NCBI GenBank assembly: GCA_000993685.1
Contig: LBWP01000006.1
Coordinates: forward strand, 5,356-69,355
DNA from: Candidatus Woesebacteria bacterium GW2011_GWA1_39_21
Lineage (GTDB): Bacteria; Patescibacteriota; Microgenomatia; UBA8517
Length of the DNA stretch: 64,000 nt
Direction of reading: 5' to 3'
In this document: positions 6,369-22,605 of the stretch, piece after piece
How positions within the stretch are numbered: position 1 is the stretch's first letter
Layout of the letters: each line of letters opens with the position of its first letter
Position numbers and translations under genes: made by a program
Notes under the pieces: generated by a model
Told to the model about the DNA's origin: nothing
Seen by the model: the letters and a program-made list of their open reading frames with translations, nothing else
Database searches by the model: none

Positions 6369-7205
6369 ATGAAAGTTTCTCTCGTTGTCACGGTTCTTAA
6401 TGAGGAACCTTCTATTGCAGCACTTCTCGAATCGCTTATTTCCCAAACAAGGCAACCGGATGAGATCGTCATTGTCGACGGAGGGTCAAACGACAAAACA
6501 GTTAATATTATTAAAAGTTATCAGAAAGTCATTAAAGGCCTGAAACTTTTGGAGTTCAAAACGACACGATCTGAGGCGAGAAATATCGGAATCCGCTCTT
6601 CAAGCGGTGATGTAATTGTCACGACCGACGCCGGATGTGTTGCGGAAAAACACTGGATTAAAAAAATCACCCAGCCTTTTACTGATTCGAAAATTGCAGC
6701 CAGATCTTTGGCTTTCCGCAAAATTTTGTGGGAAAAAGTTGGTGGGTTTCCAGAGGGGCTAAAAGACACAGCTGAAGATACGATGTTTAATTACAATATC
6801 ATAAAGGCAGGTGCAAAAATTGCCCGTGTAAAAGATGCCATTGTTTATTGGCAACTCCCTCTAACTTTGATCGAAGGCTTTAAAAAAATATTTTTGTATG
6901 CAAAGGGCGATGCACGCTCGGGAATTTGGTGGCATCCGACGAAAAAATTTTCGACGCATAACATCAAAATTGCCTTTATTTACCTGCGTTACATTTTCGC
7001 CCTCTACTTTATTTTATTTATTCCCCTTTTCCCCGTTTTGAAACTGCCTTTCGTTTTGGGAGTGGTCTTTTACATGTTCTGGGCGTTTAAAAAAGTTTAC
7101 ACGCGGACAAATGACTGTTTAGCAGGTCTGTCTGGAGTTGTTGTCCAGTTTGCTTCCGATATCGCCGTAATGTGTGGCTTTTTGTCAGGATTGATTACTA
7201 TATAG
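6369..7205 (+). CDS. family 2 glycosyltransferase with C-terminal transmembrane segment
   Basis: N-terminus VSLVVTVLNEE...DEIVIVDGGSNDKT is a typical GT2 start; C-terminus is hydrophobic. Confidence 0.65.
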   Translation: MKVSLVVTVLNEEPSIAALLESLISQTRQPDEIVIVDGGSNDKTVNIIKSYQKVIKGLKLLEFKTTRSEARNIGIRSSSGDVIVTTDAGCVAEKHWIKKITQPFTDSKIAARSLAFRKILWEKVGGFPEGLKDTAEDTMFNYNIIKAGAKIARVKDAIVYWQLPLTLIEGFKKIFLYAKGDARSGIWWHPTKKFSTHNIKIAFIYLRYIFALYFILFIPLFPVLKLPFVLGVVFYMFWAFKKVYTRTNDCLAGLSGVVVQFASDIAVMCGFLSGLITI

Positions 7206-7920
7206 ATCTTTTGAATCTTTGGTAAACTCCAAACAAGTACCAGTAAATATATTTAGGTAGCCATTTCATTAGCTTAAATTTCGATTTACCGTATTTTCTG
7301 TCGACCCAAAATGTTGGGACCTCTGTGACTTTAAATCCGGCAAAATATCCTTTGATCAAAAGCTCCTCCGCAAATTCAAAACCACCCCTCGATTCGATTT
7401 TAATACTTTTCAAAATTTCTTTTTTAAACATTTTATAAGAATAGGTCAGATCCGATGTAGGAATTCCAAGAAGATATGGTGTTGTTATTCCTGATAGCCG
7501 TGAAAGGACAGATTTAAGTGTGACTTTGGAAACAATTCGTCCGCCCTTGGAATATCTGGTTGGGCAAACGATATCGTAACCTTGTTCAATTTTTTCATAC
7601 ATCGAGTTTAAAGTTTTAGGGTCGTCTGTTCGGTCGGCAGCCATCATTACTAAAATTTCTCCGCGAGCGGTGTTGAAACCTTTCAGGGTTGCGTTGACTA
7701 CACCTTTTCCAAAATCGTTACGAACCAAACGGATGTTTCTGTGCCTTGAAACTAGTTTGCGTGCAACCGGTAAGGTGTTGTCCTTTTCATCATCATAGAC
7801 AATAATTAATTCAAATTTTGGCCGAACGACCTTACGGATTTTATCAACTGTCCAAGCAAGATTTTTCCTTTCATTTTTGACTGGTAGGATAATACTAATT
7901 TCTGGTTTTTGTTGATACAT
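7198..7920 (-). CDS. GT2 polyprenol-phosphate sugar synthase (DPM1/GtrB-like dolichyl/undecaprenyl-phosphate mannosyl- or glucosyl-transferase)
   Basis: ISIILPVKNERKNL...ELIIVYDDEKDNT...AADRTDDP matches the DPM1/GtrB GT2 pattern. Soluble, 240 aa. Confidence 0.75.
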   Translation of the reverse strand: MYQQKPEISIILPVKNERKNLAWTVDKIRKVVRPKFELIIVYDDEKDNTLPVARKLVSRHRNIRLVRNDFGKGVVNATLKGFNTARGEILVMMAADRTDDPKTLNSMYEKIEQGYDIVCPTRYSKGGRIVSKVTLKSVLSRLSGITTPYLLGIPTSDLTYSYKMFKKEILKSIKIESRGGFEFAEELLIKGYFAGFKVTEVPTFWVDRKYGKSKFKLMKWLPKYIYWYLFGVYQRFKRSI

Positions 7921-9671: not shown

Positions 9672-11222
9672 TCAATTATATAACCTTACTTCGTAATCTT
9701 CCCCCAACGATTGGCAACTTCCAATTTTTGTGAAGTCGTTGCTTTGGAGATAGCGCTCTATCTGACCACAGGATTTCATCTCTCGTGTTTTTTTGTTTTC
9801 GGGTTCCTGTGGTTTTTTTGCAAGAACCGCGAGCATGGGTTTTTGCGAAACTTGAAGCTCACCTGCAATAATTTTGCCGTATTTACAGCTATTGTGGATT
9901 CCCGGTTCTTCTGTAATAAATGAGCTGGCAGGTTTTAAATCGCTTCTCACTAAATATAACGAAGCGTTATTCCAAAGAAATTTATCGTACGAAAGACGCC
10001 CAACAAAGATTGACTTTCCTGGGACATTGTTCGTTAACCGGCGGCAATCCGATGTTTGCAGATCAATTTGATAACGCGCAAAATTATATCGAGGTACAAG
10101 TATGTATGATACTTTAACATACCAAGCCGCTAACGGTAAAAATGTCAAAAGTATAATGAAAAGCTTCGTTTGACTGAATAAATTTAGTGATTTGTTGAGA
10201 AGCACCCAGATGATACTGACAGCAAACCATAAAGGAACTGCGTGGAGCCAGTCGGATCGACCGATAGCGTAGAGCACAAACACGAGAGGATAGGATAAAA
10301 GGATTACACTACTAAGAAGTTTAGAAAGATGCTGGTTACCAAGCGAAGAAATTGCTATTTTTTTTGAACTTCTGATCAGAAGATATACGTAGATTACGAT
10401 GCAAAGGTAAATAAGTATTTCCGGACGTAACGGGTGTTTTGGAATGGGAAGCGGTAAATCTCTGTAGCTGGTGGTTAAAAATACTGGTATAACAAAGATA
10501 AAATCAATCGCGCTTTTCAAAACATTAAGCTTTTGTAAATAGAATAGCAATAAAGATAAAGATAAAAGATACGCTAAAAGTGAAAGGCGGATGTACCGGA
10601 AAAGTGTAACTAAAACAAAAGCATTTTTTTTCGTTGTGAGTCGGAAAGAGATGAAGATCAAAAAGTAAAGTCCGTGAAGAAATAACATCCAATCCCAGCG
10701 AAACCAAACGCTGGCAAATGTAACGGCGAAAGCAAAGAAGAGTGGTTTGATACTTTGCCGTTTAATGTAGTTTAAAAGCAAAAGAACATTTAATAATAAA
10801 AGCAGTAAAGAGAATGCTTCACTGCTTTCAAAAATTCTGATAACGGCTGATATAAACAAGATAACGATAGCAAGTTGGCAGTACAATCCAACTGTTTTTC
10901 GATTGCGAAAACCTAACATTAGCAGAATTGAAGTTGTCAGCAAAATGTAAAAAAGTGATTGAATAATGTTGTTTTGAATAATTGAAAGATATGGAAAGAT
11001 TTTTCCAAAGACAAGAAAAATACCTGGAGGATAGACAACTGAAAAGTCTCGATACGGAGTTAGTCCTCGTACGATATATATCTTAGAAAGAATTCGCAGA
11101 CTGCCATCAAAAATATCAACTTCGTAGCTGCCGATAATAAAAAGAAAGATTGTATATAGATAGAAGAAAAACGAAAGTAAGAAGAAATATTTTGCAATCT
11201 TGTTAATTGTTTTTTTATCCAT
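9672..11222 (-). CDS. polytopic integral membrane protein, possible additional GT-C type glycosyltransferase
   Basis: 516 aa with many TM helices. N-terminal loop YRDFSVVYPPGIFLVFG weakly resembles the GT-C loop motif. No firm assignment. Confidence 0.35.
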   Translation of the reverse strand: MDKKTINKIAKYFFLLSFFFYLYTIFLFIIGSYEVDIFDGSLRILSKIYIVRGLTPYRDFSVVYPPGIFLVFGKIFPYLSIIQNNIIQSLFYILLTTSILLMLGFRNRKTVGLYCQLAIVILFISAVIRIFESSEAFSLLLLLLNVLLLLNYIKRQSIKPLFFAFAVTFASVWFRWDWMLFLHGLYFLIFISFRLTTKKNAFVLVTLFRYIRLSLLAYLLSLSLLLFYLQKLNVLKSAIDFIFVIPVFLTTSYRDLPLPIPKHPLRPEILIYLCIVIYVYLLIRSSKKIAISSLGNQHLSKLLSSVILLSYPLVFVLYAIGRSDWLHAVPLWFAVSIIWVLLNKSLNLFSQTKLFIILLTFLPLAAWYVKVSYILVPRYNFARYQIDLQTSDCRRLTNNVPGKSIFVGRLSYDKFLWNNASLYLVRSDLKPASSFITEEPGIHNSCKYGKIIAGELQVSQKPMLAVLAKKPQEPENKKTREMKSCGQIERYLQSNDFTKIGSCQSLGEDYEVRLYN

Positions 11223-11280: not shown

Positions 11281-12495
11281 ATGGGATATTACCGAAAAAC
11301 ACTTCACGGCTTAAAGTATCAGACACTAATGCGCGCTTCAATTAGAATTATTGGTTTTATCAAAGTCGCGTTAATAGCACGGATTTTAGGGCCCGTCGAG
11401 TTTGGAATCTTTGGGATAGCAACTCTCTTGATGGGACTATTGGATACTTTCACTGACACGGGGATTAATGTTTTTCTAATTCAGGAGAAGAACAGTTTGA
11501 AAAAATTTCTTGATTCTGCGTTTTTTGTCTCGCTAACGCGGGCAGTTCTAATTGCACTAGTAATTGTTCTTCTTAACCCTTTTGTTAAGCAGTTTTTTAA
11601 CATCAGAAGTACAACACAAACTCTGCTTTTAGTTGCATTGGTCTCACTTTTGCGTGGTCTGATCAATCCTGCGATGGTGCAGTTTGAAAAGAAATTTCAG
11701 TTCGATAAACAGATGACTATCAGAGTGTTTCTATATCTACTTGACGCGATTTTTTCTATTTACTTTTGCTATAAATTCAGGGTTTCTGAAGCGATATTTA
11801 TGGGAATGATCGTTGGTGTCTTTATTGAGATTTTAATTTCCTGGTTTTTTATAAAGCCACGCGCGAAGCTCAAGTTGAATATTTCTCAATTGAAGTATGT
11901 TTTTACGAGAGGAAAGTGGATCACGCTAACGGGTATTTTTAACTATCTTTTCCATAATCTTGATGATATTTTTGTCGGCAGGATTTTAGGAGTTTCAAGT
12001 TTGGGTATATATCAACTTTCGTATAAACTTTCAACGGTTCCGATATACGAGACGGGGGAGATTTTCGGTAGAGTAACGCTTCCCGTGTATTCAAAAATAT
12101 CGCACAGTAAAGAGAGGTTAAAGAAAGCGTTTACAAAAGTAACGTTCGTAATATCACTTTTAGTTATTCCCCTGGGAATACTTTTAATCATCTTCGCCAA
12201 AAATATTGTCATGATTTTCGGCAACCAATGGCTTGAGGCAGTTCCAGTTGTCAGGTGGTTGGCGTTTTTTGGAATATTGAGAGCAATAACGGGTTCCGTT
12301 ACACCGCTTTTTTACGGCATCAAAAAACAGGAATATGCCATGAATTTCATTTTAGTTGGATTAATTGTACTGATTATTACGATATATCCTTTGGTTAAAA
12401 TCTACGGTATTATCGGGGCATGTATTTCTACAATAATTGCAACAATATCCACTATTCCGATAATCATTTTTTATTTAAAAAAGGAGTTTAAATGA
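11281..12495 (+). CDS. Wzx-like polysaccharide flippase (MOP/polysaccharide biosynthesis protein family)
   Basis: N-terminus RIIGFIKVALIARILGPVEFGIFGIATLL is typical of Polysacc_synt flippases; about 12 TM helices. Confidence 0.6.
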   Translation: MGYYRKTLHGLKYQTLMRASIRIIGFIKVALIARILGPVEFGIFGIATLLMGLLDTFTDTGINVFLIQEKNSLKKFLDSAFFVSLTRAVLIALVIVLLNPFVKQFFNIRSTTQTLLLVALVSLLRGLINPAMVQFEKKFQFDKQMTIRVFLYLLDAIFSIYFCYKFRVSEAIFMGMIVGVFIEILISWFFIKPRAKLKLNISQLKYVFTRGKWITLTGIFNYLFHNLDDIFVGRILGVSSLGIYQLSYKLSTVPIYETGEIFGRVTLPVYSKISHSKERLKKAFTKVTFVISLLVIPLGILLIIFAKNIVMIFGNQWLEAVPVVRWLAFFGILRAITGSVTPLFYGIKKQEYAMNFILVGLIVLIITIYPLVKIYGIIGACISTIIATISTIPIIIFYLKKEFK

Positions 12496-13292
12496 AAGAC
12501 GAGTTAAAAGAAGAAACACTAAAAAAACTGCTTCAGAAATTTTGGTATATCCCCTCTGACGTTGTACTTCGAACATATGAGGCGCTTCTTTGGAATAAGA
12601 TTAAATTTATCCACCCAAACCTCGATGTTGGCTGCGGAGATGGTGAGGTGGACGACTTTCTATTTAAGGGCAAGTATTTTGACTGTGCAATTGACGTTAT
12701 TGAGAGCGATATCCCCAAAGCTCGAAAATTATCAATTTATAAAAAGGTTATTAAGGCCGACGCAAGAGCTCTGCCTTTTAAAAACAATTCTTTTTCACAA
12801 GTGATTTCAAATAGCAGCTTTGAACATATTCAAAATGACGCTAAGGCGATTTCGGAAATTTCTCGTGTATTGAAAAAAGGAGGATTTTTTTGTTTTACAA
12901 CTACAAACAATTTTTTAAAAAAGGAGTTAAAGAAAATTACAGCATCCGACGAAAGGTTTATCAGCTACAACGAAAGAGTGAAACACTTTCATTACAGAAG
13001 TTTACAATCGTGGAAAAAAATTCTTTTTAAAAATGGTCTAAAGATTCGAAAGCATTACTTGTACATGGACGAAGACACAGTGAAAGTTTGGTTTTTATTG
13101 TTTCGCATGTTCACTTTTAAAATAAAGAAAAGAGAGCTATGGTCGTATTTAAGTAGTTCCAAAATCACAAAATTCATTCCTTCGTCGATAGTGGCTAAAG
13201 TGGAGCTTTTTGTACTAAAAAAAGTAGTCAGATTTGAATTTAGCCAAACGCAAGGACATTGGCTTTATATTGAAGCTGTTAAAACTATATGA
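12492..13292 (+). CDS. class I SAM-dependent methyltransferase (Methyltransf_11-like)
   Basis: LDVGCGDGE motif I; ARALPFKNNSFSQVISNSSFEHI motif II/III region. Confidence 0.65.
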   Translation: MKDELKEETLKKLLQKFWYIPSDVVLRTYEALLWNKIKFIHPNLDVGCGDGEVDDFLFKGKYFDCAIDVIESDIPKARKLSIYKKVIKADARALPFKNNSFSQVISNSSFEHIQNDAKAISEISRVLKKGGFFCFTTTNNFLKKELKKITASDERFISYNERVKHFHYRSLQSWKKILFKNGLKIRKHYLYMDEDTVKVWFLLFRMFTFKIKKRELWSYLSSSKITKFIPSSIVAKVELFVLKKVVRFEFSQTQGHWLYIEAVKTI

Positions 13293-14407
13293 AGATTGCA
13301 GTATTTCATAATTTACCTGTCGGAGGTGCCAAGAGAACGCTCTTTGAGCAGTTAAGTTATCTAATAAAAAGGCACGACGTTGACCTTTACGAATACAACT
13401 CGACAGATGAGACTTTATGGAATCTTAAAGATTTAGTAGCCAACGTTTTTTCTTACACGTTTGAAATCAAGCTAAATAAAAGCGGCATTATTAATAGACT
13501 TATCGCTGACCATAAAAATTTTTTCTTTCTAAATTCTCTCAACAGAAAAATCGCTTCGGACATCGATCATAAAAAATACGATTTAGTTCTTGTGCATGCC
13601 GATCGCTATACGCAGGCTCCTTTTATCTTAAGACATTTGAAAACTCCATCATTATATTTTTGCCAGGAGTATTTGAGGTTGGCTTACGAAAAAGAGGTGT
13701 CCTTTGGAGAAAAATTGACCGGCTTAAATTATCTTTATGAAAAAATCACCAGGTTAATTAGAAAAAATATTGATAAAGAAAATATTGAGTCTGCTGACTT
13801 TGTCGTTTGTAACTCCAACTTTACGAAAAAAAATGGTAACCGCGTTTATCGGCTGAAAAAAACTGCAGTCGATCATTTGGGTGTGGATGTTAAAAAATTT
13901 CATAAGTATGTCGTAAAAAGAAAGAATTATTTATTATTTATCGGCGAAAAAAACTTCGTTAACGGTTATCAACTTATAAAATCGATATCGTCAAAGACCA
14001 AGTGTGAGATTAAGATCTATGGTTATCATCAAGGAGCGCTTAGGGAGACGGATGATCTGAAGTTGGCAAAGATTTATTCCGAGGCGTTTTTAACGCTTTG
14101 TGTATCATATAAAGAACCCTTTGGGTTGGCAGCTTTGGAGTCGATGGCGTGTGCAACGCCGGTTCTTGCAGTCGATGAGGGTGGATATCGTGAGACGCTG
14201 GTCAATGAAGTCAGCGGGTATTTGCTCAAACGCGATGCGGATTTATTTGCAAAAAAAATTAAGGAGCTTCAAAATAACCGGAAACTGTACGAAAAAATGT
14301 CGTCGGCAGCTGTCAAATTGGTTAAAGCTAAATGGACTTGGCAGGTGCATGGGAAAAAATTAGAAGAGTACATGAACAAACTTATATCAACAAACAAGCA
14401 TGAGTAA
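13289..14407 (+). CDS. GT4 (GT1 superfamily) glycosyltransferase
   Basis: EX7E region EPFGLAALESMACATPVLAVDEGGYRETL. Confidence 0.75.
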   Translation: MKIAVFHNLPVGGAKRTLFEQLSYLIKRHDVDLYEYNSTDETLWNLKDLVANVFSYTFEIKLNKSGIINRLIADHKNFFFLNSLNRKIASDIDHKKYDLVLVHADRYTQAPFILRHLKTPSLYFCQEYLRLAYEKEVSFGEKLTGLNYLYEKITRLIRKNIDKENIESADFVVCNSNFTKKNGNRVYRLKKTAVDHLGVDVKKFHKYVVKRKNYLLFIGEKNFVNGYQLIKSISSKTKCEIKIYGYHQGALRETDDLKLAKIYSEAFLTLCVSYKEPFGLAALESMACATPVLAVDEGGYRETLVNEVSGYLLKRDADLFAKKIKELQNNRKLYEKMSSAAVKLVKAKWTWQVHGKKLEEYMNKLISTNKHE

Positions 14408-14789
14408 AGTTAGCTCAAGAAAAAAAATATTTTGGTTACTTTTTGGAATTTGGGTGTTTGTATTTTTAGTTGTTGACGCCTTTCGGGTTTTTAAAAAGAC
14501 TGTTTCAAAAATATACGAGGGAAATATACAAAAAGTCCAAAGTATGAGTGTGGATGAATTGTCAGCTTTGGCAAAAAGCAGAATTAAAAAGGGAAACTCT
14601 GTAGTTTTTCTTTCCGACGACGGCCTGGCGTACATGTATTTCAATCTGCTTTCCTATCCTCTGGTTGCGAAGTGGAGCACTGATTACACAGCCGTTGAAT
14701 TAAGGGATTGGGATTATCTTGTCGTTTATGACACGGTTAATATGTTTCAACTAAGAAGCGGACTATACTCGAAAAATGATTTTAATTAA
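14400..14789 (+). CDS. hypothetical membrane-anchored protein
   Basis: N-terminal TM helix; tightly packed in the operon; no motif. Confidence 0.3.
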   Translation: MSKVSSRKKIFWLLFGIWVFVFLVVDAFRVFKKTVSKIYEGNIQKVQSMSVDELSALAKSRIKKGNSVVFLSDDGLAYMYFNLLSYPLVAKWSTDYTAVELRDWDYLVVYDTVNMFQLRSGLYSKNDFN

Positions 14790-16122
14790 ATTTGTCATTG
14801 CCATAATTTTTACCTTCTTTGCCGGTGCTTGCGTATTCAGGTTATTTATGAAGGACAAAAGTGTTTCCGGACTTTTGTTTATCGCCACTTCTTTTTTCAT
14901 CGGCATGTCGGCAATTTCATTTCAGATGCAGCTTTATTCGCTTGTTGGGATACAATTTAGCGCTTTAAAATTGGGTCTACCATGGCTTATATTTCTACCA
15001 CTTTTCTTGAAAGAGAAGTATCTTTTTAAAGTTAAAATCAACTTGCGCAAAGTAGATAGTCCGCTTCTTTTGTTTTTTCTTTTGATAACTGTCTTTCAAC
15101 TCTCGCTGATTTTTTTGCGATTTTTTTTGCACAGAAATGCAATCGGATGGGACGGAATAAGCATTTGGTATTACAAAGCAAACGCTTTTTTTGTTGATAA
15201 AACAATTGATTTTAGCATTTTTACGAACCCGCTATTGGGCCAAGAAGGTTTAACCGATACATATATCCGTTCAAGTTACCCGCTTTTTCTGCCGTTATAT
15301 TTGGCGTTTATCTTTTTGACGATCGGAAAGTTCAGCATTTTTTTCGGAAACATAATTTGGATATTATGCTATCTCTTACTTTTAGTTGTCCTTTACAAAT
15401 TTTTGCTGCGCCGTTTTAATTTTTCTTTTGCTGTTCTTGGAATTTTTTTGTTAGTTTCGCTTCCCGCCAATTTTGATCATTTGGCGGGAAAATACGCCGG
15501 CTACGCCGATTTAATTCTAATGTGTTTTGCAACGACGGGTGTTATTTTTTTTCTGGAAGGGATTTTTCGTAAAAAACTGTATTATCTTTCAATCAGCCTA
15601 CTTTTGGCTTCTGCCGCTGCAAATATTAAGGAGGACGGAATGGTATTTTTGGCAGCGATAGCGATAATGTTTACCCTAACCTCTTTTGCAAAAAGAAAGT
15701 TTACAAACTTAAAATATTTAGCAGTTCCGCTTTTGATTGTTTCCCCCTGGTATGTTATTCGGGACATCTTGCGTTTCCCTTCTCTTCTCGACGCATCGAG
15801 CGGGGTGCATTTTGACAGGTTGGCGACAATTGTTGTTGTAATATTTCAACAATTTTTTGATGTTGGAAATTTTCTTTTTTTGTTCCCCCTGTTTCTGCTT
15901 ACGCTTGTCTTTTCCTACAGGGTTATTTTTAAACAATATTATGTCTATCTACTTGTTGTGATTGGCATGGTAATTGCTTGCTACGTTATAATCTTTATGT
16001 TAACACCGCTTGATCCGGTAAGGCACATCAACTCGCTTGCCGATCGGATTTTGTATACCGTTTCTCCTTTGATGATCATCTTTATCTTGCAAACCTTTTG
16101 GAATAGCTATATAGAAAAATAA
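14776..16122 (+). CDS. polytopic integral membrane protein of unknown function (glycan polymerase/transferase candidate)
   Basis: 448 aa, >10 predicted TM helices, embedded in the glycosylation operon. Confidence 0.4.
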   Translation: MILIKFVIAIIFTFFAGACVFRLFMKDKSVSGLLFIATSFFIGMSAISFQMQLYSLVGIQFSALKLGLPWLIFLPLFLKEKYLFKVKINLRKVDSPLLLFFLLITVFQLSLIFLRFFLHRNAIGWDGISIWYYKANAFFVDKTIDFSIFTNPLLGQEGLTDTYIRSSYPLFLPLYLAFIFLTIGKFSIFFGNIIWILCYLLLLVVLYKFLLRRFNFSFAVLGIFLLVSLPANFDHLAGKYAGYADLILMCFATTGVIFFLEGIFRKKLYYLSISLLLASAAANIKEDGMVFLAAIAIMFTLTSFAKRKFTNLKYLAVPLLIVSPWYVIRDILRFPSLLDASSGVHFDRLATIVVVIFQQFFDVGNFLFLFPLFLLTLVFSYRVIFKQYYVYLLVVIGMVIACYVIIFMLTPLDPVRHINSLADRILYTVSPLMIIFILQTFWNSYIEK

Positions 16123-16126
16123 CGAT

Positions 16127-18370
16127 ATGAAAAAACCTGATCTCTCGATAATATATGTTAACTACAATAGTCTGACCGATCTTTCACAATCAATTAGGTC
16201 ATTAATAAAATACGGATTTAAAAAGAATTTGGAAATTATCGTCGTTGATAATGGTCACTCTAAAGAAATCAAAAAAATTCTTTCGCAATTCCACACTAAG
16301 GTAAAGTTAATTAGAAGCAAAATTAATGGCGGCTATGGGGCCGGAAATAATCTAGGTGCGCTCATCTCAGTTGGAAAATACTTGCTATTTCTTAATCCCG
16401 ACACCGAAATGAAAAAGGGGAGTATTGACGTGCTTTATAACTTTTTAGAAAAAAACGACGACGTTGCAATTGTTGCACCAAACCTTGTTGATACAAGGGG
16501 AATTGTCTTTAAACAACTTGGCTCACGAAAGTTGACACCACTAAGAGGAATATTTTCATTATCGATTATCAACAGACTCTTTTCCGGTAACCCAATTGCG
16601 AAAAATTACAACCTCCTGGACAAAGATTTTAACAAAGTCCGTGAAGCAGACGTTGTCCCCGGTTCCGCGTTTATGATAAGAGCCTCGGTCTTTAAAAAAG
16701 TCGGCGGCTTTGATAAGCGGTTTTTTATGTACTTTGAGGAGTCGGATCTTTGTCTTCGCGTCAAACAGTTGGGGTACAAAATTGTTATCATACCGACTTC
16801 CGAAATTGTCCACAAGTGGAGTGACAGACAAAATAAAAAATTAAAAAAATATTTTTACAAAAGCCGTTTTTATTATTTTAAGAAACACTTCGGAGTGGTT
16901 GCCGCTTCGTTTGTCGAATTCATCTGCCGCTTAACCAAATATGATTTGGTATTCATCTTAATTTTCGCACTGGGCGCGTATCTGAGGTTTTATATGTCTA
17001 ACAAACTTTTTTATCTTGATTCGGAGGTTGCCGATAATTTGCTAGACATAAAAAACGCCTATTTAAGTAATAGCATCCCATTAATCGGTCCGCCAACTTC
17101 TCATCCTTGGTTGAACTTTGGTCCACTTTTCTATTGGATATATGGCCCTATTTTGATTTTTTTTAAGTTTAATCCGGCAACCCACATGTACTTTGGGCTG
17201 CTTGTTAGCTGTCTTGCAATTTTCTTGAACTACTTTGTTGTAAAACGCTTTTGGGGTTCTAAAATCGCAGTTTTGTCATCGCTGATTATTTCACTATCAC
17301 CGTTTTTATTGGGGTATGCATACCTTGGTAGATTTTATACATACACAGTAACTTTTTCATATCTAACACTATTTCTGCTTTTAAAGTTTTTAGATACGAA
17401 AAAAGGTCTTTTCTGGCTTTTTTTCAGTGTTGGATTGCTTTTGAACTTTCATTATTCGACACTTGTTTTGGCTCCAGCGATTCTTTTGCTTATTACTCTG
17501 CGTAAGATTAAGCTCTCGTTTAAGGATTTATTTATCTTACTCATTGCTGTCTTGTTGCCGCTCTCCCCACTTTTTATATATGATGCTCAAAATCATTTTG
17601 TCATGTTACAAAAATTGTTTTTATGGTTTCCATATCGGGTTTTGAGTGTTTTTTGGGTAATTAATGCGGGAAATGTTCCACAAGACGCGTTAGTTTCCGG
17701 ATACCAAATGTTTTTCGGATTTGTCGGAAATCTTTTGTCTTTTGAAGACGTTAAAACACTCCACATTTTGGCAGCATTGACTGTCTTTACGCTGTTACTT
17801 TTTACACTGATTAAATTCACGAAACTGGGAAAATATTCGCAAAACCTTATAATTATCTCCGGAAGTTCTTTGTTCTTACTGACTTTACACGGCGAGACAC
17901 CTAATCATTACTTTCTCTTTATCTCTCCATTTATTTTAATTTTGATAACGGTTGCACTAGTTAGACTTTTTCCGCGGAGAATATCGCTCTTTCTTCTACT
18001 TTTGATTTGTTCAGTGTTATTTTTTAACATCGTACTTTATCTCAAATTGAGGCAGAACAAAGTGATAACGACCTATTTTCAACAAAAACAAGTAGCAACG
18101 TTTTTGGTTAATGACAGTAACTCAAAAGCAATCTGGCTAAGAAGAATCGGTGAAAACGACCAGTTTGATGGAGATTTCGCGCAAAATTATGATTATCTTT
18201 TGTGGATGTTTGGAAACGAACCGGTAAGGTTGGGTAATCTGACCAATAGTCAAAAAAATCCACAAGTTGAATATATAATAGTGGAAGATAAGTCGTTTGA
18301 AGACAAAGCCTTTGTATCGATGCAAAAGTATTCAGTGTCAGGTGTAACAATTTTAAAAAAGAATTTATGA
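16127..18370 (+). CDS. fusion protein: N-terminal GT2 glycosyltransferase domain plus C-terminal ArnT/PMT-like GT-C membrane domain
   Basis: N-terminus LSIIYVNYNS...IIVVDNGHSKE...NPDTE (GT2 DXD). C-terminal polytopic domain has LDSEVADNLLDIKNAY...GPPTSHPWLNFGPLFYW, the ArnT/PMT loop-1 pattern. Confidence 0.65.
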   Translation: MKKPDLSIIYVNYNSLTDLSQSIRSLIKYGFKKNLEIIVVDNGHSKEIKKILSQFHTKVKLIRSKINGGYGAGNNLGALISVGKYLLFLNPDTEMKKGSIDVLYNFLEKNDDVAIVAPNLVDTRGIVFKQLGSRKLTPLRGIFSLSIINRLFSGNPIAKNYNLLDKDFNKVREADVVPGSAFMIRASVFKKVGGFDKRFFMYFEESDLCLRVKQLGYKIVIIPTSEIVHKWSDRQNKKLKKYFYKSRFYYFKKHFGVVAASFVEFICRLTKYDLVFILIFALGAYLRFYMSNKLFYLDSEVADNLLDIKNAYLSNSIPLIGPPTSHPWLNFGPLFYWIYGPILIFFKFNPATHMYFGLLVSCLAIFLNYFVVKRFWGSKIAVLSSLIISLSPFLLGYAYLGRFYTYTVTFSYLTLFLLLKFLDTKKGLFWLFFSVGLLLNFHYSTLVLAPAILLLITLRKIKLSFKDLFILLIAVLLPLSPLFIYDAQNHFVMLQKLFLWFPYRVLSVFWVINAGNVPQDALVSGYQMFFGFVGNLLSFEDVKTLHILAALTVFTLLLFTLIKFTKLGKYSQNLIIISGSSLFLLTLHGETPNHYFLFISPFILILITVALVRLFPRRISLFLLLLICSVLFFNIVLYLKLRQNKVITTYFQQKQVATFLVNDSNSKAIWLRRIGENDQFDGDFAQNYDYLLWMFGNEPVRLGNLTNSQKNPQVEYIIVEDKSFEDKAFVSMQKYSVSGVTILKKNL

Positions 18371-19143
18371 GCAAAATCAGTGTCGTAATTTTAACCCACA
18401 ATTCGGGGAGTGTGATTGGACCGCTCTACCAATCGCTTAAAGAGTTTGATGAGGTCCTTGCTATTGATGATAACTCCTGCGATCAGACAGAAAATATTTG
18501 TAAGCGTTTAGGTATCAGATATTTCAATCACACCCTCAACGGCGACTTTTCCGCACAAAGAAATTTCGCTCTAACAAAATGTAGCTACGACTGGGTGTTT
18601 TACATTGATAGTGACGAGACGGTTAATGAGAATTTTGTGGACGAGATTAAAAGGTTAGCCGGTAACAACAATTTTGCAGGCTATTATGTTACGCGAAAAG
18701 TTAATTTTTTAAATCATGTCATGATTGCTACGGAAATGGGAAATGACAAGTTGGTTCGCGTTGGTTTAAAAAATTCTGGTAAGTGGGTTCGGCGCGTGCA
18801 TGAAGTTTGGAAGATTAACGGAAATCTGGGTGAAATTAACACGCCGCTTATTCATAATACTGCACTTACGCTTCACAAATTTATCGAAAAGCTAAACTGT
18901 TATTTCAGGCTTCATGCACAAGAAAATCTAAACGCAGGGAAAAGTGTCAGCTTTTCTAAAATATTATTTTTTTCGCTTGGAAAATTTTTTAAAAATTATA
19001 TATTTCTTCGTGGATATCGTGATGGTACGCATGGCTTCGTCGCAAGTGTTCTCATGTCGCTTCATACATTTCTTTCCTGGTCGTACGCTTGGCTTCAAGG
19101 AAATATTCAGAAAGGTAACAGGGGTGATAAACTTTCAGTGTAG
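18367..19143 (+). CDS. family 2 glycosyltransferase
   Basis: ISVVILTHNSG...LAIDDNSCDQT...YIDSDE. Confidence 0.7.
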   Translation: MSKISVVILTHNSGSVIGPLYQSLKEFDEVLAIDDNSCDQTENICKRLGIRYFNHTLNGDFSAQRNFALTKCSYDWVFYIDSDETVNENFVDEIKRLAGNNNFAGYYVTRKVNFLNHVMIATEMGNDKLVRVGLKNSGKWVRRVHEVWKINGNLGEINTPLIHNTALTLHKFIEKLNCYFRLHAQENLNAGKSVSFSKILFFSLGKFFKNYIFLRGYRDGTHGFVASVLMSLHTFLSWSYAWLQGNIQKGNRGDKLSV

Positions 19144-19147
19144 TAGT

Positions 19148-20647
19148 ATGCCGCAAATTGTGGAGTTTTTAAAAAAACATTGGTTTTTGCTCTTATCCTT
19201 TTTATATTTTTTGACAAGGCTGTTTAATTTATTAACCTTGCCAATTTTTAACGATGAAGCCATATATATCGATTGGGCAAATAAAATGCGTTTTGGGTAT
19301 GTACCAACTTTCTATTCACTTTATGACGGTAAACCCCCCCTCCACTTTATTTTGATTTCACAAGCGTTAAAGGTCTTTGCTAACCCCTTGTTGGCGGGCA
19401 GGCTAGTCAGCGTTTTTATCGGATTTTCCACGTTAATTGTTTTGAAAAAAATCTCAGAAGCTGTTTTTGACAAGAGAGAAGGCGTCTTTTTGGTGTGTGT
19501 TTTTTACATTCTTTCCCCAATTTATACATTTTTTGATCGGCAAGCATTGCAAGAGCCGGTCTTAACAACATTTCTTTTATGGAGCTTCTATTTTTTAATA
19601 AAGTATTCGCAAAAATTTAGAGTAAAAGACATCATCTTTTCGGCTTTGTTTTTAAACCTGGCCTTTTTTACAAAAGCATCAGCAGCATATTTGCTTGGAC
19701 CAATTTGTTTATATTTTATCTACAAATTTTTTGTTGATCCAAAAAATAGAAATAATATATTCCTTTCAGCGGTGTGTTATTTTTGTGTCTTTATTTGCTT
19801 ATTGGCACCTCTTATGCTTCAAGAGCAAGCACATCTGATTTTTACACGTAACGACCGCTATCTGCTTAGTCTGAATTTGCCACCAGCGGTGTTTCTAAAA
19901 ATTTTGATAGACAATCTTGTCAAAAGCTTCCATCTTTTCCTTTGGTATTTTAATGTTTACCTTTTATTTTTTGTTATTTCATTGGTAAGTTTCTTGCGGA
20001 AGGTAAGATCGAGTGAATTAAAAATCTTTTTTTTGTTTATGTTGCCGCTGATTATTATGATCTTTACTTCCAAAGAAATTAACGACAGATACATTGCCCC
20101 ATTTTCAATATTTTTGATATTTATTTGTGCGGCGGGATTTACGGCGGTCAATAACAGTCTGAGGATTTTCTTCTATTTCACCCTGATTGTTCCGGCATTA
20201 ATTACTTTTTTTCAAATCATAAACATCAACAGTTACATATCTTTGCTAAACAAAAGTTATCCCCACCTGGGGCTATCAATTTATCAGAATGGGTTTACAT
20301 CCGGATATGGCGTAACTCACGCAATAACTTATCTTCAAAGTCTTGAGAGTAGTCACCGGAAGCTGTACCTTGGCGTTCGCGTCGATGCCGGCAATCCCGA
20401 AAGTGCTGTCATGGCATATTTTCTCAAGGACAAAAAAGCAACGGTTGTGCCAATGTATTTTGATGCACGGTTAATCAAACTTCCACTTCCGGATGATTTT
20501 GTTGGTAACATCTACCCATTCTATTTTATCTCGAGAGATGATAATTTAGCCGGAATGGATAAATATTTGACACTTGTGAAAAAGTTTTTCAAACCTGATG
20601 GAGTATCGTTTGTCGGAATCTATAAATATCAAAAATCCAAAAGTTAA
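19148..20647 (+). CDS. ArnT/PMT-like GT-C membrane glycosyltransferase (GT39/GT83-type)
   Basis: LPIFNDEAIYIDWANKM...DGKPPLHFIL matches the DE-x-x-Y-A ... KPPL loop-1 signature. I take the ATG at 19148, just after the stop of the upstream GT2, rather than the overlapping track ORF start at 18944. Confidence 0.65.
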   Translation: MPQIVEFLKKHWFLLLSFLYFLTRLFNLLTLPIFNDEAIYIDWANKMRFGYVPTFYSLYDGKPPLHFILISQALKVFANPLLAGRLVSVFIGFSTLIVLKKISEAVFDKREGVFLVCVFYILSPIYTFFDRQALQEPVLTTFLLWSFYFLIKYSQKFRVKDIIFSALFLNLAFFTKASAAYLLGPICLYFIYKFFVDPKNRNNIFLSAVCYFCVFICLLAPLMLQEQAHLIFTRNDRYLLSLNLPPAVFLKILIDNLVKSFHLFLWYFNVYLLFFVISLVSFLRKVRSSELKIFFLFMLPLIIMIFTSKEINDRYIAPFSIFLIFICAAGFTAVNNSLRIFFYFTLIVPALITFFQIININSYISLLNKSYPHLGLSIYQNGFTSGYGVTHAITYLQSLESSHRKLYLGVRVDAGNPESAVMAYFLKDKKATVVPMYFDARLIKLPLPDDFVGNIYPFYFISRDDNLAGMDKYLTLVKKFFKPDGVSFVGIYKYQKSKS

Positions 20648-20649
20648 CT

Positions 20650-21911
20650 ATGATACCCACAAACTTAACTATTAAAAAAGCCTATGCATATGTAATTGTC
20701 GTCGCTTTTCTTTTGCTTTTCCCCTTTGGACAACTGCTGCGGATCAACTTAACAGCACTGGGTTTTAATTTTGGAATAGTTCCTGCCGACATCCTTGCGC
20801 TTTTCTCGCTTCCGTACTTGTTCTTGAATAATGACATCCTCCCCGCCTTAAAAGGCGGGGTTTCCCCAAGGAGGATGACATATAAGCAAAGCTTAACTCT
20901 GTTTGCACATTTTCAGAGTTCAATTCATCTTATCTAAAAAGAATCATCTTTTTCTTTATTGCAAGTTGGGTTTTTTCATTGATTGTTTTTCGAACCACGG
21001 CAATCGTTTACGGTTTAATGTATTTAATCCGGCTGGTATCGTATATCTCGTTTGCATTTCTTGTCAACTATCTATGCGCTTCTGAAAGGATTAAAAAAAA
21101 TATTTTGAACCTGACCTTGGTTGTGCTTGGTTTTTTTATGCTTCTTGGAGCATGTCAGTTTATTTTTTATTATGATTTGCGTGATTTATACTTTAGCGGT
21201 TGGGACGACCACTACTATCGATTTGTCTCAACAACCCTAGATCCGGGTTACGCTGCAGTTGTTTTAAATATCGGGCTGGTTTTGGTTTTAGCAAAAAATC
21301 TTATTAAATCACGATACGTAAAGATACTTTTCACAGTTTTATTTGTTACCGCAGTCATCCTGACTTTTTCCCGAGCAGGGTATCTGACTCTTTTGGCGCT
21401 TCTTTTGTACAGATTTAAAAAACACTTTAAAAAAATTCTCTTGGTAGCCGTCGTCGTTGTTATATTTTTACTGATAGTTCCGAAACCGAGGAGTGCGGGT
21501 GTCGAGTTGTTAAGAACGTTTAGTATCAGCTCAAGAGTTGATGATTACAAAAAAACCGCAGAAATATTCTTTAAACACCCTCTTTTCGGCGTTGGATATA
21601 ATAATTTGTGTTTATTCCGCGTGATTAATGGTGAAAACAATATCGCTTCGCATTCCTGTTCGGGAAGTGACTCGTCACTTCTGACGATTTTGGCAACGAC
21701 CGGCGTGGTCGGATCAATGATCTTTTTCATATCTTTTTACAAAATCATAGGGCTTTTGCCAAAAGATGAGTATGGCCACATCGTGAAGATGGTTATTATG
21801 GTCTTGCTTGTAAGTTCGCTTTTTAATAACACGCTCTTTTTCAATTTTAATATGGGGCTTTTCGCGCTATTTTTCGGACTTTCGAGGAAAACCTCTACTC
21901 TTGAAAATTAA
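20650..21911 (+). pseudogene. Wzy/WaaL-like O-antigen ligase/polymerase family gene split into 95-aa and 310-aa ORFs by a 95-nt palindromic insertion
   Basis: Both parts are polytopic. The C-terminal part has the Wzy_C-type motif FSRAGYLTLLALLL. Removing nt 20830-20924 joins the two ORFs in frame with no intervening stop. Confidence 0.55.
20830..20924 (+). mobile_element. 95-nt miniature palindromic repeat element (MITE-like), copy A, inside the Wzy-like gene
   Basis: A 57-nt block and a 37-nt block are identical to the reverse complement of 30259-30376. Contains nested hairpins (ccccgcc ttaaaa ggcgggg, flanked by atgacatcctcc / ggaggatgacat). Confidence 0.6.
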
Positions 21912-22605
21912 CCGTTAGTTGTTTTGTCGCTTCGTTACCTGCCTTGTCTTTAGCCACGAGGGTGATTGTATTTGCGCCTGGCTGCAAATTGTATTTGTAG
22001 CCGAAGGTGTCATCGTCAGAGACGAGGACGTACTTGTCATTTATTTTAAGTTCAACATCACTATCGCTTGTACCCTTAATTTCAACTAAACGATTTTTAT
22101 CTCCGTAAACTGTGGAGTTGTCTTGCGGTTGGTTCACTGTTAAATTTGGATTGTCCTTGTCTAAAACAATTTGGTACTGTTTTGTATGGACACTTTCATT
22201 TCCTGCAGAATCAGTTGAAAAAAGAAAGAAACTGTTGATGCCGCTAACAAGCTTCGCCTTAAAAATATATGACCCGTCGGAATCAGCAACCTGTTCGTAA
22301 GTGTCCCTGTTTAAAGAAAGAGTAACCGCTGATGCGGCCTCTGCAGAACCTTTAACTTCAATGTTATCCTTATTTGTGTAGTCGGGAATGTCATTAACAA
22401 GGGGAATGTTCGGAGGGATTTTATCTTCAGATTTGCTGATAGTATCGGAATTTTTTAAGTTTCCGATAAAGTTGATGACGTAAACAAGTGCTTTGGCGCC
22501 GGCAAAAAAGATTACAACCGCGGAAAAGATTGTAAAAAGCAGATAGCGAATCGATTTGTTTCGATTCGACTGGGTCTGTTTTTTTTGTCTAAGCGAATAA
22601 TACAT
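21895..22605 (-). CDS. membrane-anchored surface protein with tandem bacterial Ig-like domains
   Basis: N-terminal TM helix; two roughly 80-aa repeats with a beta-rich pattern (e.g. KGSAEAASAVTLSLN..., KGTSDSDVELKIN...ITLVAKDKAGNE). Confidence 0.45.
   Translation of the reverse strand: MYYSLRQKKQTQSNRNKSIRYLLFTIFSAVVIFFAGAKALVYVINFIGNLKNSDTISKSEDKIPPNIPLVNDIPDYTNKDNIEVKGSAEAASAVTLSLNRDTYEQVADSDGSYIFKAKLVSGINSFFLFSTDSAGNESVHTKQYQIVLDKDNPNLTVNQPQDNSTVYGDKNRLVEIKGTSDSDVELKINDKYVLVSDDDTFGYKYNLQPGANTITLVAKDKAGNEATKQLTVNFQE

What the first reader, a model, noticed from the sequence alone, without database searches (positions are those of the whole stretch)
16127..18370. GT2 synthase domain fused to a GT-C transferase domain
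The N-terminal 250 aa are a canonical cytoplasmic GT2 (DXD present). The C-terminal roughly 480 aa form a polytopic domain carrying LDSEVADNLL...GPPTSHPWLNFGPLFYW, the ArnT/PMT-like signature. Such a fusion could make a lipid-phosphate sugar on the cytoplasmic face and consume it on the outer face in a single polypeptide. This is uncommon and mechanistically interesting, since flipping would have to be intrinsic or handled by the neighbouring Wzx.
Basis: partly seen in the sequence, partly recalled or inferred. Interest (0 to 1): 0.55.

Follow-up and report, generated by a model that had tools for sequence, protein, structure and literature searches.

The report
Two-sided GT2–GT-C fused glycosyltransferase
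One gene of an uncultivated groundwater bacterium really does join a sugar-adding enzyme that works inside the cell to a second one that works on the outer face of the membrane, but the two halves most likely do separate steps of one surface-sugar pathway and do not form a self-contained make-and-use machine.

Summary
ORF 16127-18370 (+) encodes a 747-aa protein identical to a deposited "Glycosyl transferase family 2" of Candidatus Woesebacteria GW2011_GWA1_39_21. Residues 1-236 are a GT2/GT-A domain, and two conserved amphipathic helices follow. Residues 271-747 fold as a 13-TM GT-C enzyme with an outer C-terminal domain; the top 32 PDB fold hits are all GT-C, with ArnT first.

- The GT2 is not of the polyprenyl-phosphate-sugar synthase class. 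It aligns to ArnC, DPMS and GtrB only over the nucleotide-binding half, and over its full length it resembles ppGalNAc-T, GlfT and rhamnosyltransferase-type enzymes.
- Three of three fully annotated clusters have a separate DPM1/GtrB/ArnC-type GT2, and four more partial loci show a homolog of it.
- Orthologs of this GT-C occur without the GT2 in the same gene slot (71 stand-alone versus 38 fused among the best 150 cluster representatives), and they keep the same conserved outer-face residues.
- The GT2 module also occurs alone and fused to GT2 or GT4 modules.

The most likely reading is a lineage-specific fusion (Microgenomates) of a variable cytoplasmic elongating GT to a conserved outer-face GT-C, within a Wzx/Wzy_C surface-glycan cluster. 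It is uncharacterised and of modest interest.

The parts
16127..18370 (+). Whole gene: 747-aa GT2-GT-C fusion protein
   Evidence: ORF list and translation. It is 100% identical to the deposited protein P0001. The full-length AF2 model has pLDDT 94.4 and pTM 0.91.
16127..16834 (+). Cytoplasmic GT2 (GT-A fold) catalytic domain, residues 1-236. Invariant or near-invariant residues: D41, N42, N75, N90-P91-D92, D196, E204, E205, D207, H229.
   Evidence: Pfam PF00535 scores 76.3 bits. Conservation comes from the 103-sequence alignment. Foldseek hits to ppGalNAc-T2 and to 6p61 have E about 1e-11. D92 and H229 align to the DxH and His metal ligands of GalNAc-T.
16835..16927 (+). Two conserved amphipathic helices, residues 237-267 (F243, S246, R247, Y249, Y250, F251, K252, K253, G256). 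They belong to the GT2 module and are a probable membrane-interface element.
   Evidence: AF2 helices H237-255 and H257-267; conservation. The SR[FY]YYF[KR]K[HN] motif is also found in stand-alone GT2 homologs of many phyla. Stand-alone GT-C orthologs start only at TM1.
16937..18058 (+). GT-C transmembrane domain, residues 271-644, about 13 TM helices, N-terminus inside
   Evidence: AF2 secondary structure plus the positive-inside count. Foldseek gives ArnT, STT3, PglB, AglB, ALG12, Pmt4, ALG9, AftD, DPY19, Emb and PimE. Pfam PMT_2 matches residues 333-482.
16991..17125 (+). First external loop (EL1), residues 289-333, with the conserved acidic residue E300 (codon 17024-17026) and the G321-P-P-T-S325-H326-P-W328 motif
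   Evidence: E or D at position 300 in 103/103 fused and 59/59 stand-alone relatives. hhalign places E300 on the E of the 'NDEAIY' motif of the neighbouring PMT_2 paralog. The codon was checked.
18059..18367 (+). C-terminal extracytoplasmic alpha/beta domain, residues 645-747 (G675, Y688, Y690, L691, W693, G696, E720 conserved)
   Evidence: AF2 strands and helices at 650-746; conservation. The topology puts it outside, as in ArnT.
7198..7920 (-). Stand-alone 240-aa GT2 of the polyprenyl-phosphate-sugar synthase type, the likely supplier of the GT-C donor
   Evidence: NCBIfam matches over the whole domain to PgfS, ArnC, Dol-P-hexose transferase and AglJ. BLASTP against E. coli ArnC gives 3e-16 over residues 7-220, including the DRKYGKSK / EREFGESK motif. 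Counterparts exist in L081 and L083 and in L004, L007, L013 and L016.
11281..12495 (+). Wzx/MOP-family flippase
   Evidence: Pfam Polysacc_synt_3 scores 210 bits and NCBIfam matches the MOP flippase family. It is syntenic in related loci.
13289..14407 (+). GT4 glycosyltransferase, a conserved member of the cluster located upstream of the fusion
   Evidence: Pfam Glycos_transf_1 and Glyco_transf_4. It directly precedes the fusion in most other loci; here a 129-aa ORF and a PMT_2 gene lie in between.
14776..16122 (+). GT-C paralog (PMT_2), 448 aa, about 11 TM helices
   Evidence: Pfam PMT_2 scores 27.1 bits. It is not BLASTP-similar to the fusion. TM count.
18367..19143 (+). 258-aa GT2, conserved immediately downstream of the fusion
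   Evidence: Pfam GT2; synteny.
19148..20647 (+). GT-C paralog (PMT_2) with the canonical 'FNDEAIY' DE motif. The true start is probably the ATG at 19148, not the GTG at 18944.
   Evidence: Pfam PMT_2 scores 50.7 bits. Sequence. hhalign against the fusion family gives E 1.2e-4.
20650..21911 (+). Wzy_C (O-antigen ligase / polymerase / O-OTase family) gene, split by a frame change in this window
   Evidence: Pfam Wzy_C. A 398-aa ortholog aligns in two different frames.
21895..22605 (-). Convergent small Big_13 + Glucodextran_B surface-type protein, found next to the Wzy_C gene in most related loci examined
   Evidence: Pfam; synteny.

Best explanation
The protein is a bifunctional glycosyltransferase with active sites on opposite faces of the membrane. 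It belongs to a conserved surface-glycan cluster of Microgenomates (Patescibacteria) with the order Wzx - methyltransferase - GT4 - [GT2-GT-C] - GT2 - (further GT-C paralogs) - Wzy_C. The N-terminal GT2 sits in the cytoplasm, is held at the membrane by two amphipathic helices, and uses a nucleotide sugar to add one residue to a lipid-linked glycan intermediate (inferred). The C-terminal ArnT-like GT-C has its conserved residues (E300, R287, S325, H326, W328, D486, W500, Y503, H588, Y595) on the outer side. It transfers a sugar from a polyprenyl-phosphate-linked donor to the flipped glycan or its final acceptor (inferred). That donor is most likely made by the separate DPM1/GtrB/ArnC-type GT2 encoded in the same cluster. 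The two halves therefore catalyse different steps of one pathway. The fusion joins a variable cytoplasmic GT module to a conserved GT-C and does not form a closed synthesis-and-consumption unit. What is shown: the domain identities, folds, topology plan, residue conservation, synteny, and the existence of unfused orthologs. What is inferred: the substrates, the order of steps and the acceptor.
For: The GT-A and GT-C folds come from high-confidence models. Catalytic-type residues of both halves are invariant across 103 relatives. The topology is GT2 inside (46 K/R), 13 TM helices, with EL1 and the C-terminal domain outside. The GT2 matches ArnC, DPMS and GtrB only in the nucleotide-binding half, but matches ppGalNAc-Ts over residues 5-235 and MftF, rhamnosyltransferase and GlfT1 models in NCBIfam. 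JGI names two relatives as WbbL-type. A separate Pol-P-sugar-synthase-type GT2 is present in the window, L081 and L083, and homologs lie near the fusion in L004, L007, L013 and L016. The cluster is syntenic in more than 12 loci. Stand-alone GT-C orthologs sit in the same slot without the GT2 and have identical conserved residues. The GT2 module is found alone in many phyla and fused to GT2 or GT4, and in L089 the GT4 is doubled next to a stand-alone GT-C. Precedent for cytoplasmic GTs, a Wzx flippase and outer-face GT-C enzymes acting on one lipid-linked glycan comes from PMC10821137.
Against: No substrate has been tested. The GT2 subtype assignment rests on profile and fold similarity far below any curated equivalog cutoff (for example TIGR01556 at 54 bits against a cutoff of 200). 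The conserved amphipathic helices next to the GT2 site would equally suit a bare polyprenyl-phosphate acceptor. The canonical Asp of the GT-C 'DE' dyad is missing (G or S at 299), so the catalytic chemistry of the GT-C half is not certain. No phosphoglycosyl transferase was found in the cluster, so the nature of the lipid-linked acceptor (Pol-PP or Pol-P) is unknown. I could not inspect the model coordinates, so the geometry between the two sites was not examined.
Confidence: 0.55

Rival explanations
1. Build-and-transfer variant. The GT2 elongates a polyprenyl-P(P)-linked oligosaccharide on the inner face. After Wzx flips it, the protein's own GT-C domain uses that same oligosaccharide-lipid as donor, acting as a polymerase or ligase like the lactococcal WpsH/WpsJ or an OST. 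The protein would then handle one lipid-linked intermediate on both faces.
For: The cluster has Wzx, a Pol-P-sugar-synthase-type GT2 that could initiate on Pol-P, several cytoplasmic GTs, and no phosphoglycosyl transferase. This is the layout described for the lactococcal PSP (PMC10821137). The fold hits include the oligosaccharyltransferases STT3, PglB and AglB directly after ArnT.
Against: The GT-C orthologs function without the GT2 in the same slot. A Wzy_C protein that could be the polymerase or ligase is already present. Fold similarity does not discriminate mono- from oligosaccharide donors.
Confidence: 0.2
2. The GT2 synthesises a polyprenyl-phosphate monosaccharide on the cytoplasmic face, and the fused GT-C consumes it outside. 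Flipping would be intrinsic or carried out by the neighbouring Wzx.
For: GT2 + GT-C is the classic functional pair (GtrB/GtrC, ArnC/ArnT, GacI/GacL; PMC10821137). The conserved amphipathic helices lie directly before TM1. The high pTM of 0.91 suggests a fixed arrangement of the two domains.
Against: The GT2 aligns with ArnC, DPMS and GtrB only over residues 2-115 and lacks their C-terminal lipid-phosphate motif region, whereas a stand-alone GT2 in the same cluster has it. Such stand-alone synthases are present in three of three fully annotated clusters, and homologs appear in four more loci. GT-C orthologs exist without the GT2. The GT2 module also occurs alone and fused to cytoplasmic GTs.
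Confidence: 0.12
3. The GT-C half is catalytically dead and serves only as a membrane anchor or scaffold that holds the GT2 at the membrane or within a glycan-assembly complex.
For: The canonical Asp of the 'DE' dyad is absent. The Pfam PMT_2 score is marginal. There is no sequence-level match to ArnT.
Against: The conserved polar residues cluster on the outer side, with an acidic residue at position 300 in 162 of 162 sequences, and the external C-terminal domain is conserved. Stand-alone orthologs, which have nothing to anchor, keep the same residues and the same gene slot.
Confidence: 0.07

Closest known systems
ArnT (GT83; Cupriavidus metallidurans, PDB 5F15/5EZM) and other GT-C enzymes (STT3/PglB/AglB, ALG12, Pmt4)
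   Same: The C-terminal half shares the GT-C fold (TM-score 0.59 over about 570 columns), the plan of N-terminus inside, 13 TM helices and a C-terminal soluble domain outside, and a conserved acidic residue in the first external loop.
   Different: About 11% identity. hhalign against E. coli ArnT finds nothing meaningful. The 'DE' dyad is reduced to a single E/D. The N-terminus carries a complete cytoplasmic GT2. The donor and acceptor are unknown.
Three- or four-component glycosylation systems: GtrB/GtrA/GtrC, ArnC/ArnEF/ArnT, GacI/GacJ/GacK/GacL, PgfS/PgfM
   Same: The cluster contains a DPM1/GtrB-type GT2 (7198-7920), a Wzx-type flippase and several GT-C proteins, which is the same logic of making a Pol-P-sugar inside and using it outside (PMC10821137).
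   Different: The GT2 fused to the GT-C is not the GtrB/ArnC/GacI-type synthase. In the known systems the synthase and the GT-C are separate proteins.
Lactococcal PSP pathway (WpsA/B, WpsC-F, WpsG, WpsH, WpsJ)
   Same: Cytoplasmic GTs of variable type elongate a lipid-linked sugar, a Wzx flippase moves it, and GT-C enzymes act outside. The variable GT content tracks glycan diversity (PMC10821137).
   Different: The organisms are unrelated, there is no detectable orthology, and the lactococcal enzymes are not fused.
WbbL / GlfT1 / MftF-like GT2 enzymes and ppGalNAc-T GT-A domains
   Same: They are the best sequence and fold relatives of the N-terminal domain over its full length. D92 and H229 align to the metal ligands of ppGalNAc-T. 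Pfam Glyco_transf_7C gives a weak hit.
   Different: All scores are far below the curated cutoffs (54 against 200 bits for TIGR01556), so membership of any characterised equivalog is not established. These enzymes are soluble or peripheral, and are not joined to a GT-C.
Mycobacterium tuberculosis Ppm1 (Rv2051c): membrane Lnt-like domain fused to a cytoplasmic Ppm synthase (from my own knowledge; not tested here)
   Same: It is a precedent for one polypeptide that combines a cytoplasmic GT2 with a polytopic enzyme domain acting at the outer face.
   Different: There the GT2 is a true Pol-P-mannose synthase, and the membrane partner is an acyltransferase-type domain, not a GT-C.

Membership tests
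GT2 (Pfam PF00535, GT-A fold) | Profile match above the curated threshold | tested here: met
   76.3 bits against a cutoff of 23.3, residues 7-191.
GT2 (Pfam PF00535, GT-A fold) | GT-A fold | tested here: met
   The AF2 model has pLDDT 94.4. Foldseek E is about 1e-11 to ppGalNAc-T2, and TM 0.84-0.85 (normalised to the target) to 6p61.
GT2 (Pfam PF00535, GT-A fold) | DXD-type metal/nucleotide motif and an acidic catalytic residue | tested here: met
   A variant motif, N90-P91-D92, with D92 invariant. H229 (102/103) aligns to the third metal ligand of GalNAc-T. E205 and D207 are invariant. There is no literal D-x-D at the canonical site.
Polyprenyl-phosphate sugar synthases (DPM1/GtrB/ArnC/PpgS-type GT2) | Similarity across the whole catalytic domain, including the acceptor half | tested here: not met
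   The family profile aligns to E. coli ArnC only over residues 9-109, to DPMS 5mlz over 2-115, and to GtrB 5ekp over 3-105. There is no NCBIfam hit to the ArnC, PgfS, PpgS or Dol-P-hexose models. The control ORF 7198-7920 matches all of these over its full length.
Polyprenyl-phosphate sugar synthases (DPM1/GtrB/ArnC/PpgS-type GT2) | Formation of a Pol-P-monosaccharide from an NDP-sugar and Pol-P | not testable with these tools
   This needs a biochemical assay.
GT-C superfamily (PMT_2 / ArnT-like) | GT-C fold of the membrane domain | tested here: met
   The top 32 Foldseek PDB hits are all GT-C or GT-C-like, with ArnT at E 1.8e-6 and TM 0.59, and ALG12 at TM 0.61.
GT-C superfamily (PMT_2 / ArnT-like) | Profile match to a GT-C Pfam family above threshold | tested here: met
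   PMT_2 scores 29.6 bits against 26.1, which is marginal. Most relatives also carry PF13231. A weak profile hit to PIG-M has E 0.007.
GT-C superfamily (PMT_2 / ArnT-like) | Conserved acidic catalytic residue in the first external loop after TM1, facing outside | tested here: met
   E or D at position 300 in 103/103 fused and 59/59 stand-alone relatives. The loop is assigned to the outside by the topology count. Structural superposition on ArnT D55 was not possible, because no coordinates were available.
GT-C superfamily (PMT_2 / ArnT-like) | Canonical 'DE' dyad of ArnT/PMT-type enzymes | tested here: not met
   hhalign puts E300 on the E of 'NDEAIY'. The D position is G in the consensus and S299 in this protein.
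GT-C superfamily (PMT_2 / ArnT-like) | Use of a polyprenyl-phosphate-linked sugar donor | not testable with these tools
   Inferred from the fold and from the Pol-P-sugar-synthase-type GT2 in the cluster.
ArnT proper (GT83, lipid A Ara4N transferase) | Sequence-level homology to ArnT | tested here: not met
   hhalign of the family against E. coli ArnT gives probability 0.2%. NCBIfam has no hit for the C-terminal half.
WbbL-type rhamnosyltransferase (TIGR01556) | Score above the curated cutoff | tested here: not met
   54.2 bits against 200.55. This is similarity only; the JGI 'WbbL' names for two relatives are automatic.

The most novel reading that the evidence does not exclude
The fusion is a self-contained trans-membrane glycosylation unit. 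The GT2, although not of the DPM1 class, loads a sugar onto polyprenyl phosphate at the amphipathic-helix/TM1 interface. The same polypeptide then guides or flips that lipid to its own outer-face GT-C site. This would be a new class of Pol-P-sugar synthase physically coupled to its consumer.
Probability: 0.08. Interest if true: 0.75.

Novelty: new variant of a known kind. Interest (0 to 1): 0.3.

Why it matters
If both halves are active, this is a natural single-chain enzyme with glycosyltransferase sites on both faces of the membrane. It comes from uncultivated Patescibacteria, whose cell-surface chemistry is essentially unknown. Fused and unfused forms occupy the same gene slot, which gives a clean natural experiment on what fusion adds, such as stoichiometry, localisation of a soluble GT at the lipid carrier, or complex assembly. 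The conserved cluster (Wzx, Wzy_C, several GT-C proteins, a Pol-P-sugar synthase, and a syntenic small surface protein) is a concrete candidate for the main surface-glycan or glycoprotein pathway of Microgenomates. The finding does not, on present evidence, reveal a new mechanism for making or flipping lipid-linked sugars.

Tried and rejected
(1) Sequence search of the whole protein and of the family profile against the PDB found only GT-A hits, plus a weak PIG-M hit for the C-terminal half. The GT-C question had to be settled by structure.

(2) Foldseek with the full-length model was saturated by GT-A hits. It was solved by modelling residues 265-747 separately.

(4) hhalign of the family against E. 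coli ArnT gave no usable alignment, so E300 could not be registered on ArnT D55 by sequence. Model coordinates are not exposed, so no 3D check of the active-site geometry or of the distance between the two sites was possible.

(5) I first concluded that this GT-C subfamily is always fused, because three 'GT-C-only' hits were a frameshifted gene and truncations. The exhaustive representative search overturned this: 71 stand-alone against 38 fused.

(6) The idea that the fusion is a recent duplicate or merger of the neighbouring GT2 + PMT_2 pair was rejected, because there is no BLASTP similarity to any paralog in the locus.

(7) The small ORFs 14400-14789 and 20650-20937 were considered as GtrA- or ArnE/F-like flippases. 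Neither has a family hit; the first has one TM helix, and the second is the N-terminal piece of the split Wzy_C.

(8) Literature searches for a described GT2/GT-A-GT-C fusion, or for glycosylation work on Woesebacteria or CPR bacteria, found nothing relevant.
Full report
**Observation**

The ORF at 16127-18370 (+) is real. It starts at an ATG 4 nt after the stop of the preceding gene, and it overlaps the next gene by 4 nt (ATGA), so it lies inside a tightly packed operon.

It is 100% identical to a deposited protein, [quoted passage not shown]. The window therefore comes from a CPR/Patescibacteria (Microgenomates) genome of about 36% GC.

**Domain identities**

- Pfam finds Glycos_transf_2 at residues 7-191 (76.3 bits) and PMT_2 at residues 333-482. 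The PMT_2 score of 29.6 bits is barely above the 26.1-bit cutoff.
- Sequence searches against solved structures hit only the GT2 half.
- I aligned 103 full-length relatives of 30-50% identity (A1). The resulting AF2 model has pLDDT 94.4 and pTM 0.91.
- The full-length fold search returned only GT-A hits, so I modelled residues 265-747 alone (pLDDT 94.5).
- The top 32 PDB matches of that model are all GT-C enzymes or GT-C-like proteins. ArnT comes first (5F15, E 1.8e-6, TM 0.59), followed by STT3, PglB, AglB, ALG12 (TM 0.61), Pmt4, ALG9, AftD, AftA, DPY19, PIG-U, ALG3, EmbB and PimE.

**Anatomy and conservation**

*GT2 domain.* D41/N42, N75, N90-P91-D92, D196, E204, E205, D207 and H229 are invariant or nearly so. 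The canonical DXD position reads N-P-D. In the alignment to a ppGalNAc-T it lies on the D-x-H motif, and H229 lies on the second His metal ligand.

*Linker.* Residues 237-267 form two strongly conserved amphipathic helices with the motif SRFYYFKKH.

*Membrane domain.* AF2 helices combined with a positive-inside count give the following plan:
- the GT2 is inside (46 K/R);
- there are 13 TM helices;
- the first external loop, residues 289-333, is outside;
- an alpha/beta C-terminal domain, residues 645-747, is outside.

This is the ArnT plan.

*Candidate active site.* An acidic residue at position 300 is present in 103 of 103 relatives. Other conserved residues lie at or near the outer face: R287, G321, S325, H326, W328, S391-P392, D486, W500, Y503, H588 and Y595. 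Profile-to-sequence alignment with the neighbouring PMT_2 paralog, which has a canonical FNDEAIY motif, puts E300 on the E of the DE dyad. The D position is G in the consensus and S here. The GT-C half thus looks active but has a reduced acidic motif.

**Which kind of GT2 is it?**

This question decides the interpretation.

- The family profile aligns to E. coli ArnC only over residues 9-109.
- It aligns to DPMS (5mlz) and GtrB (5ekp) only over residues 2-115. It aligns to ppGalNAc-Ts over residues 5-235.
- NCBIfam gives MftF, rhamnosyltransferase (TIGR01556), GlfT1 and similar models, all far below their cutoffs. It gives no ArnC, PgfS, PpgS or Dol-P-hexose model.
- As an internal control, the stand-alone 240-aa GT2 at 7198-7920 (minus strand) matches PgfS, ArnC, Dol-P-hexose transferase and AglJ over its whole domain.
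- That control also aligns to ArnC over residues 7-220, including the C-terminal R-x-x-G-x-SK stretch.

The fused GT2 is therefore not of the polyprenyl-phosphate-sugar synthase class, and a gene of that class sits 8 kb upstream.

**Comparative genomics**

*Cluster conservation.* The conserved order is Wzx - MTase - GT4 - fusion - GT2 of about 255 aa - (zero to two PMT_2) - Wzy_C - a convergent Big_13/Glucodextran_B protein. This order is found in Woesebacteria and Levybacteria loci and in ten further loci. Some of those MAGs are labelled "uncultured Gammaproteobacteria", but they have 32-34% GC and the same cluster, so the labels are probably wrong.

*Separate donor synthase.* All three fully annotated clusters contain a separate Pol-P-sugar-synthase-type GT2. 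In L081 it lies directly downstream of the fusion, and there the fusion is the only GT-C in the cluster. Homologs of the window's synthase also lie within 10 kb of the fusion in L004, L007, L013 and L016.

*Fused and stand-alone forms.* A search of 1.84 billion cluster representatives with the C-terminal domain alone found 1224 relatives at E up to 0.001. Among the best 150, 38 are fused, 71 are full-size stand-alone proteins of about 470 aa, and the rest are fragments. This corrected my earlier impression that the domain is always fused.

*Same slot, no GT2.* Two stand-alone orthologs that I located sit in exactly the same slot, between the GT4 and the GT2 of about 255 aa, with no GT2 domain and no substitute GT2 gene. 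In one of them the upstream GT4 is doubled to a 755-aa GT4-GT4 protein. The stand-alone proteins keep the same conserved residues, including E or D at position 300 in 59 of 59.

*The GT2 module elsewhere.* The GT2 module, with its amphipathic helices, occurs alone in Cyanobacteria, Chloroflexota, Bacteroidota, Actinomycetota, Planctomycetota and other phyla. It also occurs fused to a second GT2 or to a GT4.

Together these results describe a conserved outer-face GT-C to which a variable cytoplasmic GT module has been joined in one lineage.

**Mechanism**

Best explanation (confidence about 0.55). The two halves catalyse different steps of one surface-glycan pathway:
- The GT2 adds a sugar from a nucleotide sugar to a lipid-linked intermediate on the inner face.
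- Wzx flips the intermediate.
- The GT-C adds a sugar outside from a Pol-P-sugar made by the separate synthase.

The folds, topology, conservation and synteny are shown. The substrates and the order of steps are inferred.

A close variant (about 0.2) is that the GT-C uses the flipped oligosaccharide-lipid itself as donor, acting as a polymerase or ligase in the manner of WpsH/WpsJ. This is suggested by the absence of a phosphoglycosyl transferase from the cluster and by the lactococcal precedent (PMC10821137).

**Comparison with known systems**

- The C-terminal half works like ArnT/PMT-type GT-C enzymes. It is not a sequence-level member of ArnT and lacks the full DE dyad.
- The N-terminal half is a GT2 of the broad WbbL/GlfT/MftF-like group, without membership of any curated equivalog.
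- The cluster resembles the GtrB/GtrC, GacI/GacL and Pgf systems, and the lactococcal Wps pathway.

I found no paper describing a natural GT2-GT-C fusion or any glycosylation work on these organisms. The protein is already in public databases with an automatic GT2 name.

**Verdict**

The thing is a real, conserved, uncharacterised two-domain enzyme, best classed as a new variant of known kinds. The mechanistically exciting reading is disfavoured by four independent lines of evidence. Interest is 0.3.

Noticed in passing
window 20650-21911 (+): The Wzy_C gene is split. A 398-aa ortholog aligns its residues 1-61 to 20650-20832 in one frame and residues 81-338 to 20964-21725 in another frame. This means a frameshift, and so a pseudogene or an assembly error. 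All other loci have an intact gene of about 398 aa.
   Followed up: yes
window 21895-22605 (-): A small (236-aa) Big_13 + Glucodextran_B protein lies convergent to Wzy_C in most related loci examined. It may be the glycosylation target or a glycan-binding surface protein. PglL-type O-OTase genes are reported to lie next to their targets (PMC3643930 abstract).
   Followed up: partly
window 3646-6357 (+): A 903-aa protein with about 9 N-terminal TM helices and a C-terminal GH5 'cellulase' domain. This is another polytopic-plus-catalytic fusion in the same glycan region.
   Followed up: no
window 16-1605 (+): A single ORF combines a GT4 glycosyltransferase and a PIG-L-type de-N-acetylase domain.
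   Followed up: no
window 2199-3662 (+) and 9672-11222 (-): Two further polytopic proteins (8 and 10 predicted TM helices). The first weakly matches the LA_3751/LA_3752 putative glycosyltransferase family, and the second has no family hit. They may be additional GT-C-like enzymes, which would give up to six in 22 kb.
   Followed up: partly
window 18944-20647 (+): The listed GTG start overlaps the upstream GT2 gene by 200 nt. The ATG at 19148 gives a 499-aa PMT_2 protein that starts just before TM1 and carries a canonical FNDEAIY motif, so it is the likelier start.
   Followed up: yes
L089:3270-5537, L039:9677-11761, L020:9971-11818: Cytoplasmic GT modules in related loci are fused in different combinations: GT4-GT4 (755 aa), GT2-GT4 (694 aa) and GT2-GT2 (615 aa). 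This suggests frequent fusion of neighbouring GT genes in these lineages.
   Followed up: partly
L003, L004, L005, L007, L008 (genome contigs): MAGs titled 'uncultured Gammaproteobacteria' have 32-34% GC where checked (L003, L005). L003, L005 and L008 carry much of the Microgenomates glycan cluster, while L004 and L007 carry part of it (Wzx, GT4, fusion, Pol-P-sugar synthase homolog). The taxonomic labels look wrong.
   Followed up: partly
P0029 (1118 aa), P0035 (1092 aa): These are longer relatives. In P0035 the GT-C match starts near residue 625, implying an extra N-terminal module of about 350 aa before the GT2-GT-C unit.
   Followed up: no
L033:9947-11947 (Flavisolibacter), L060:9998-11941 (Terrimonas): Bacteroidota homologs of the GT2 module are about 650 aa, with a C-terminal region of about 350 aa that has no Pfam annotation. 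This may be a different membrane partner.
   Followed up: no
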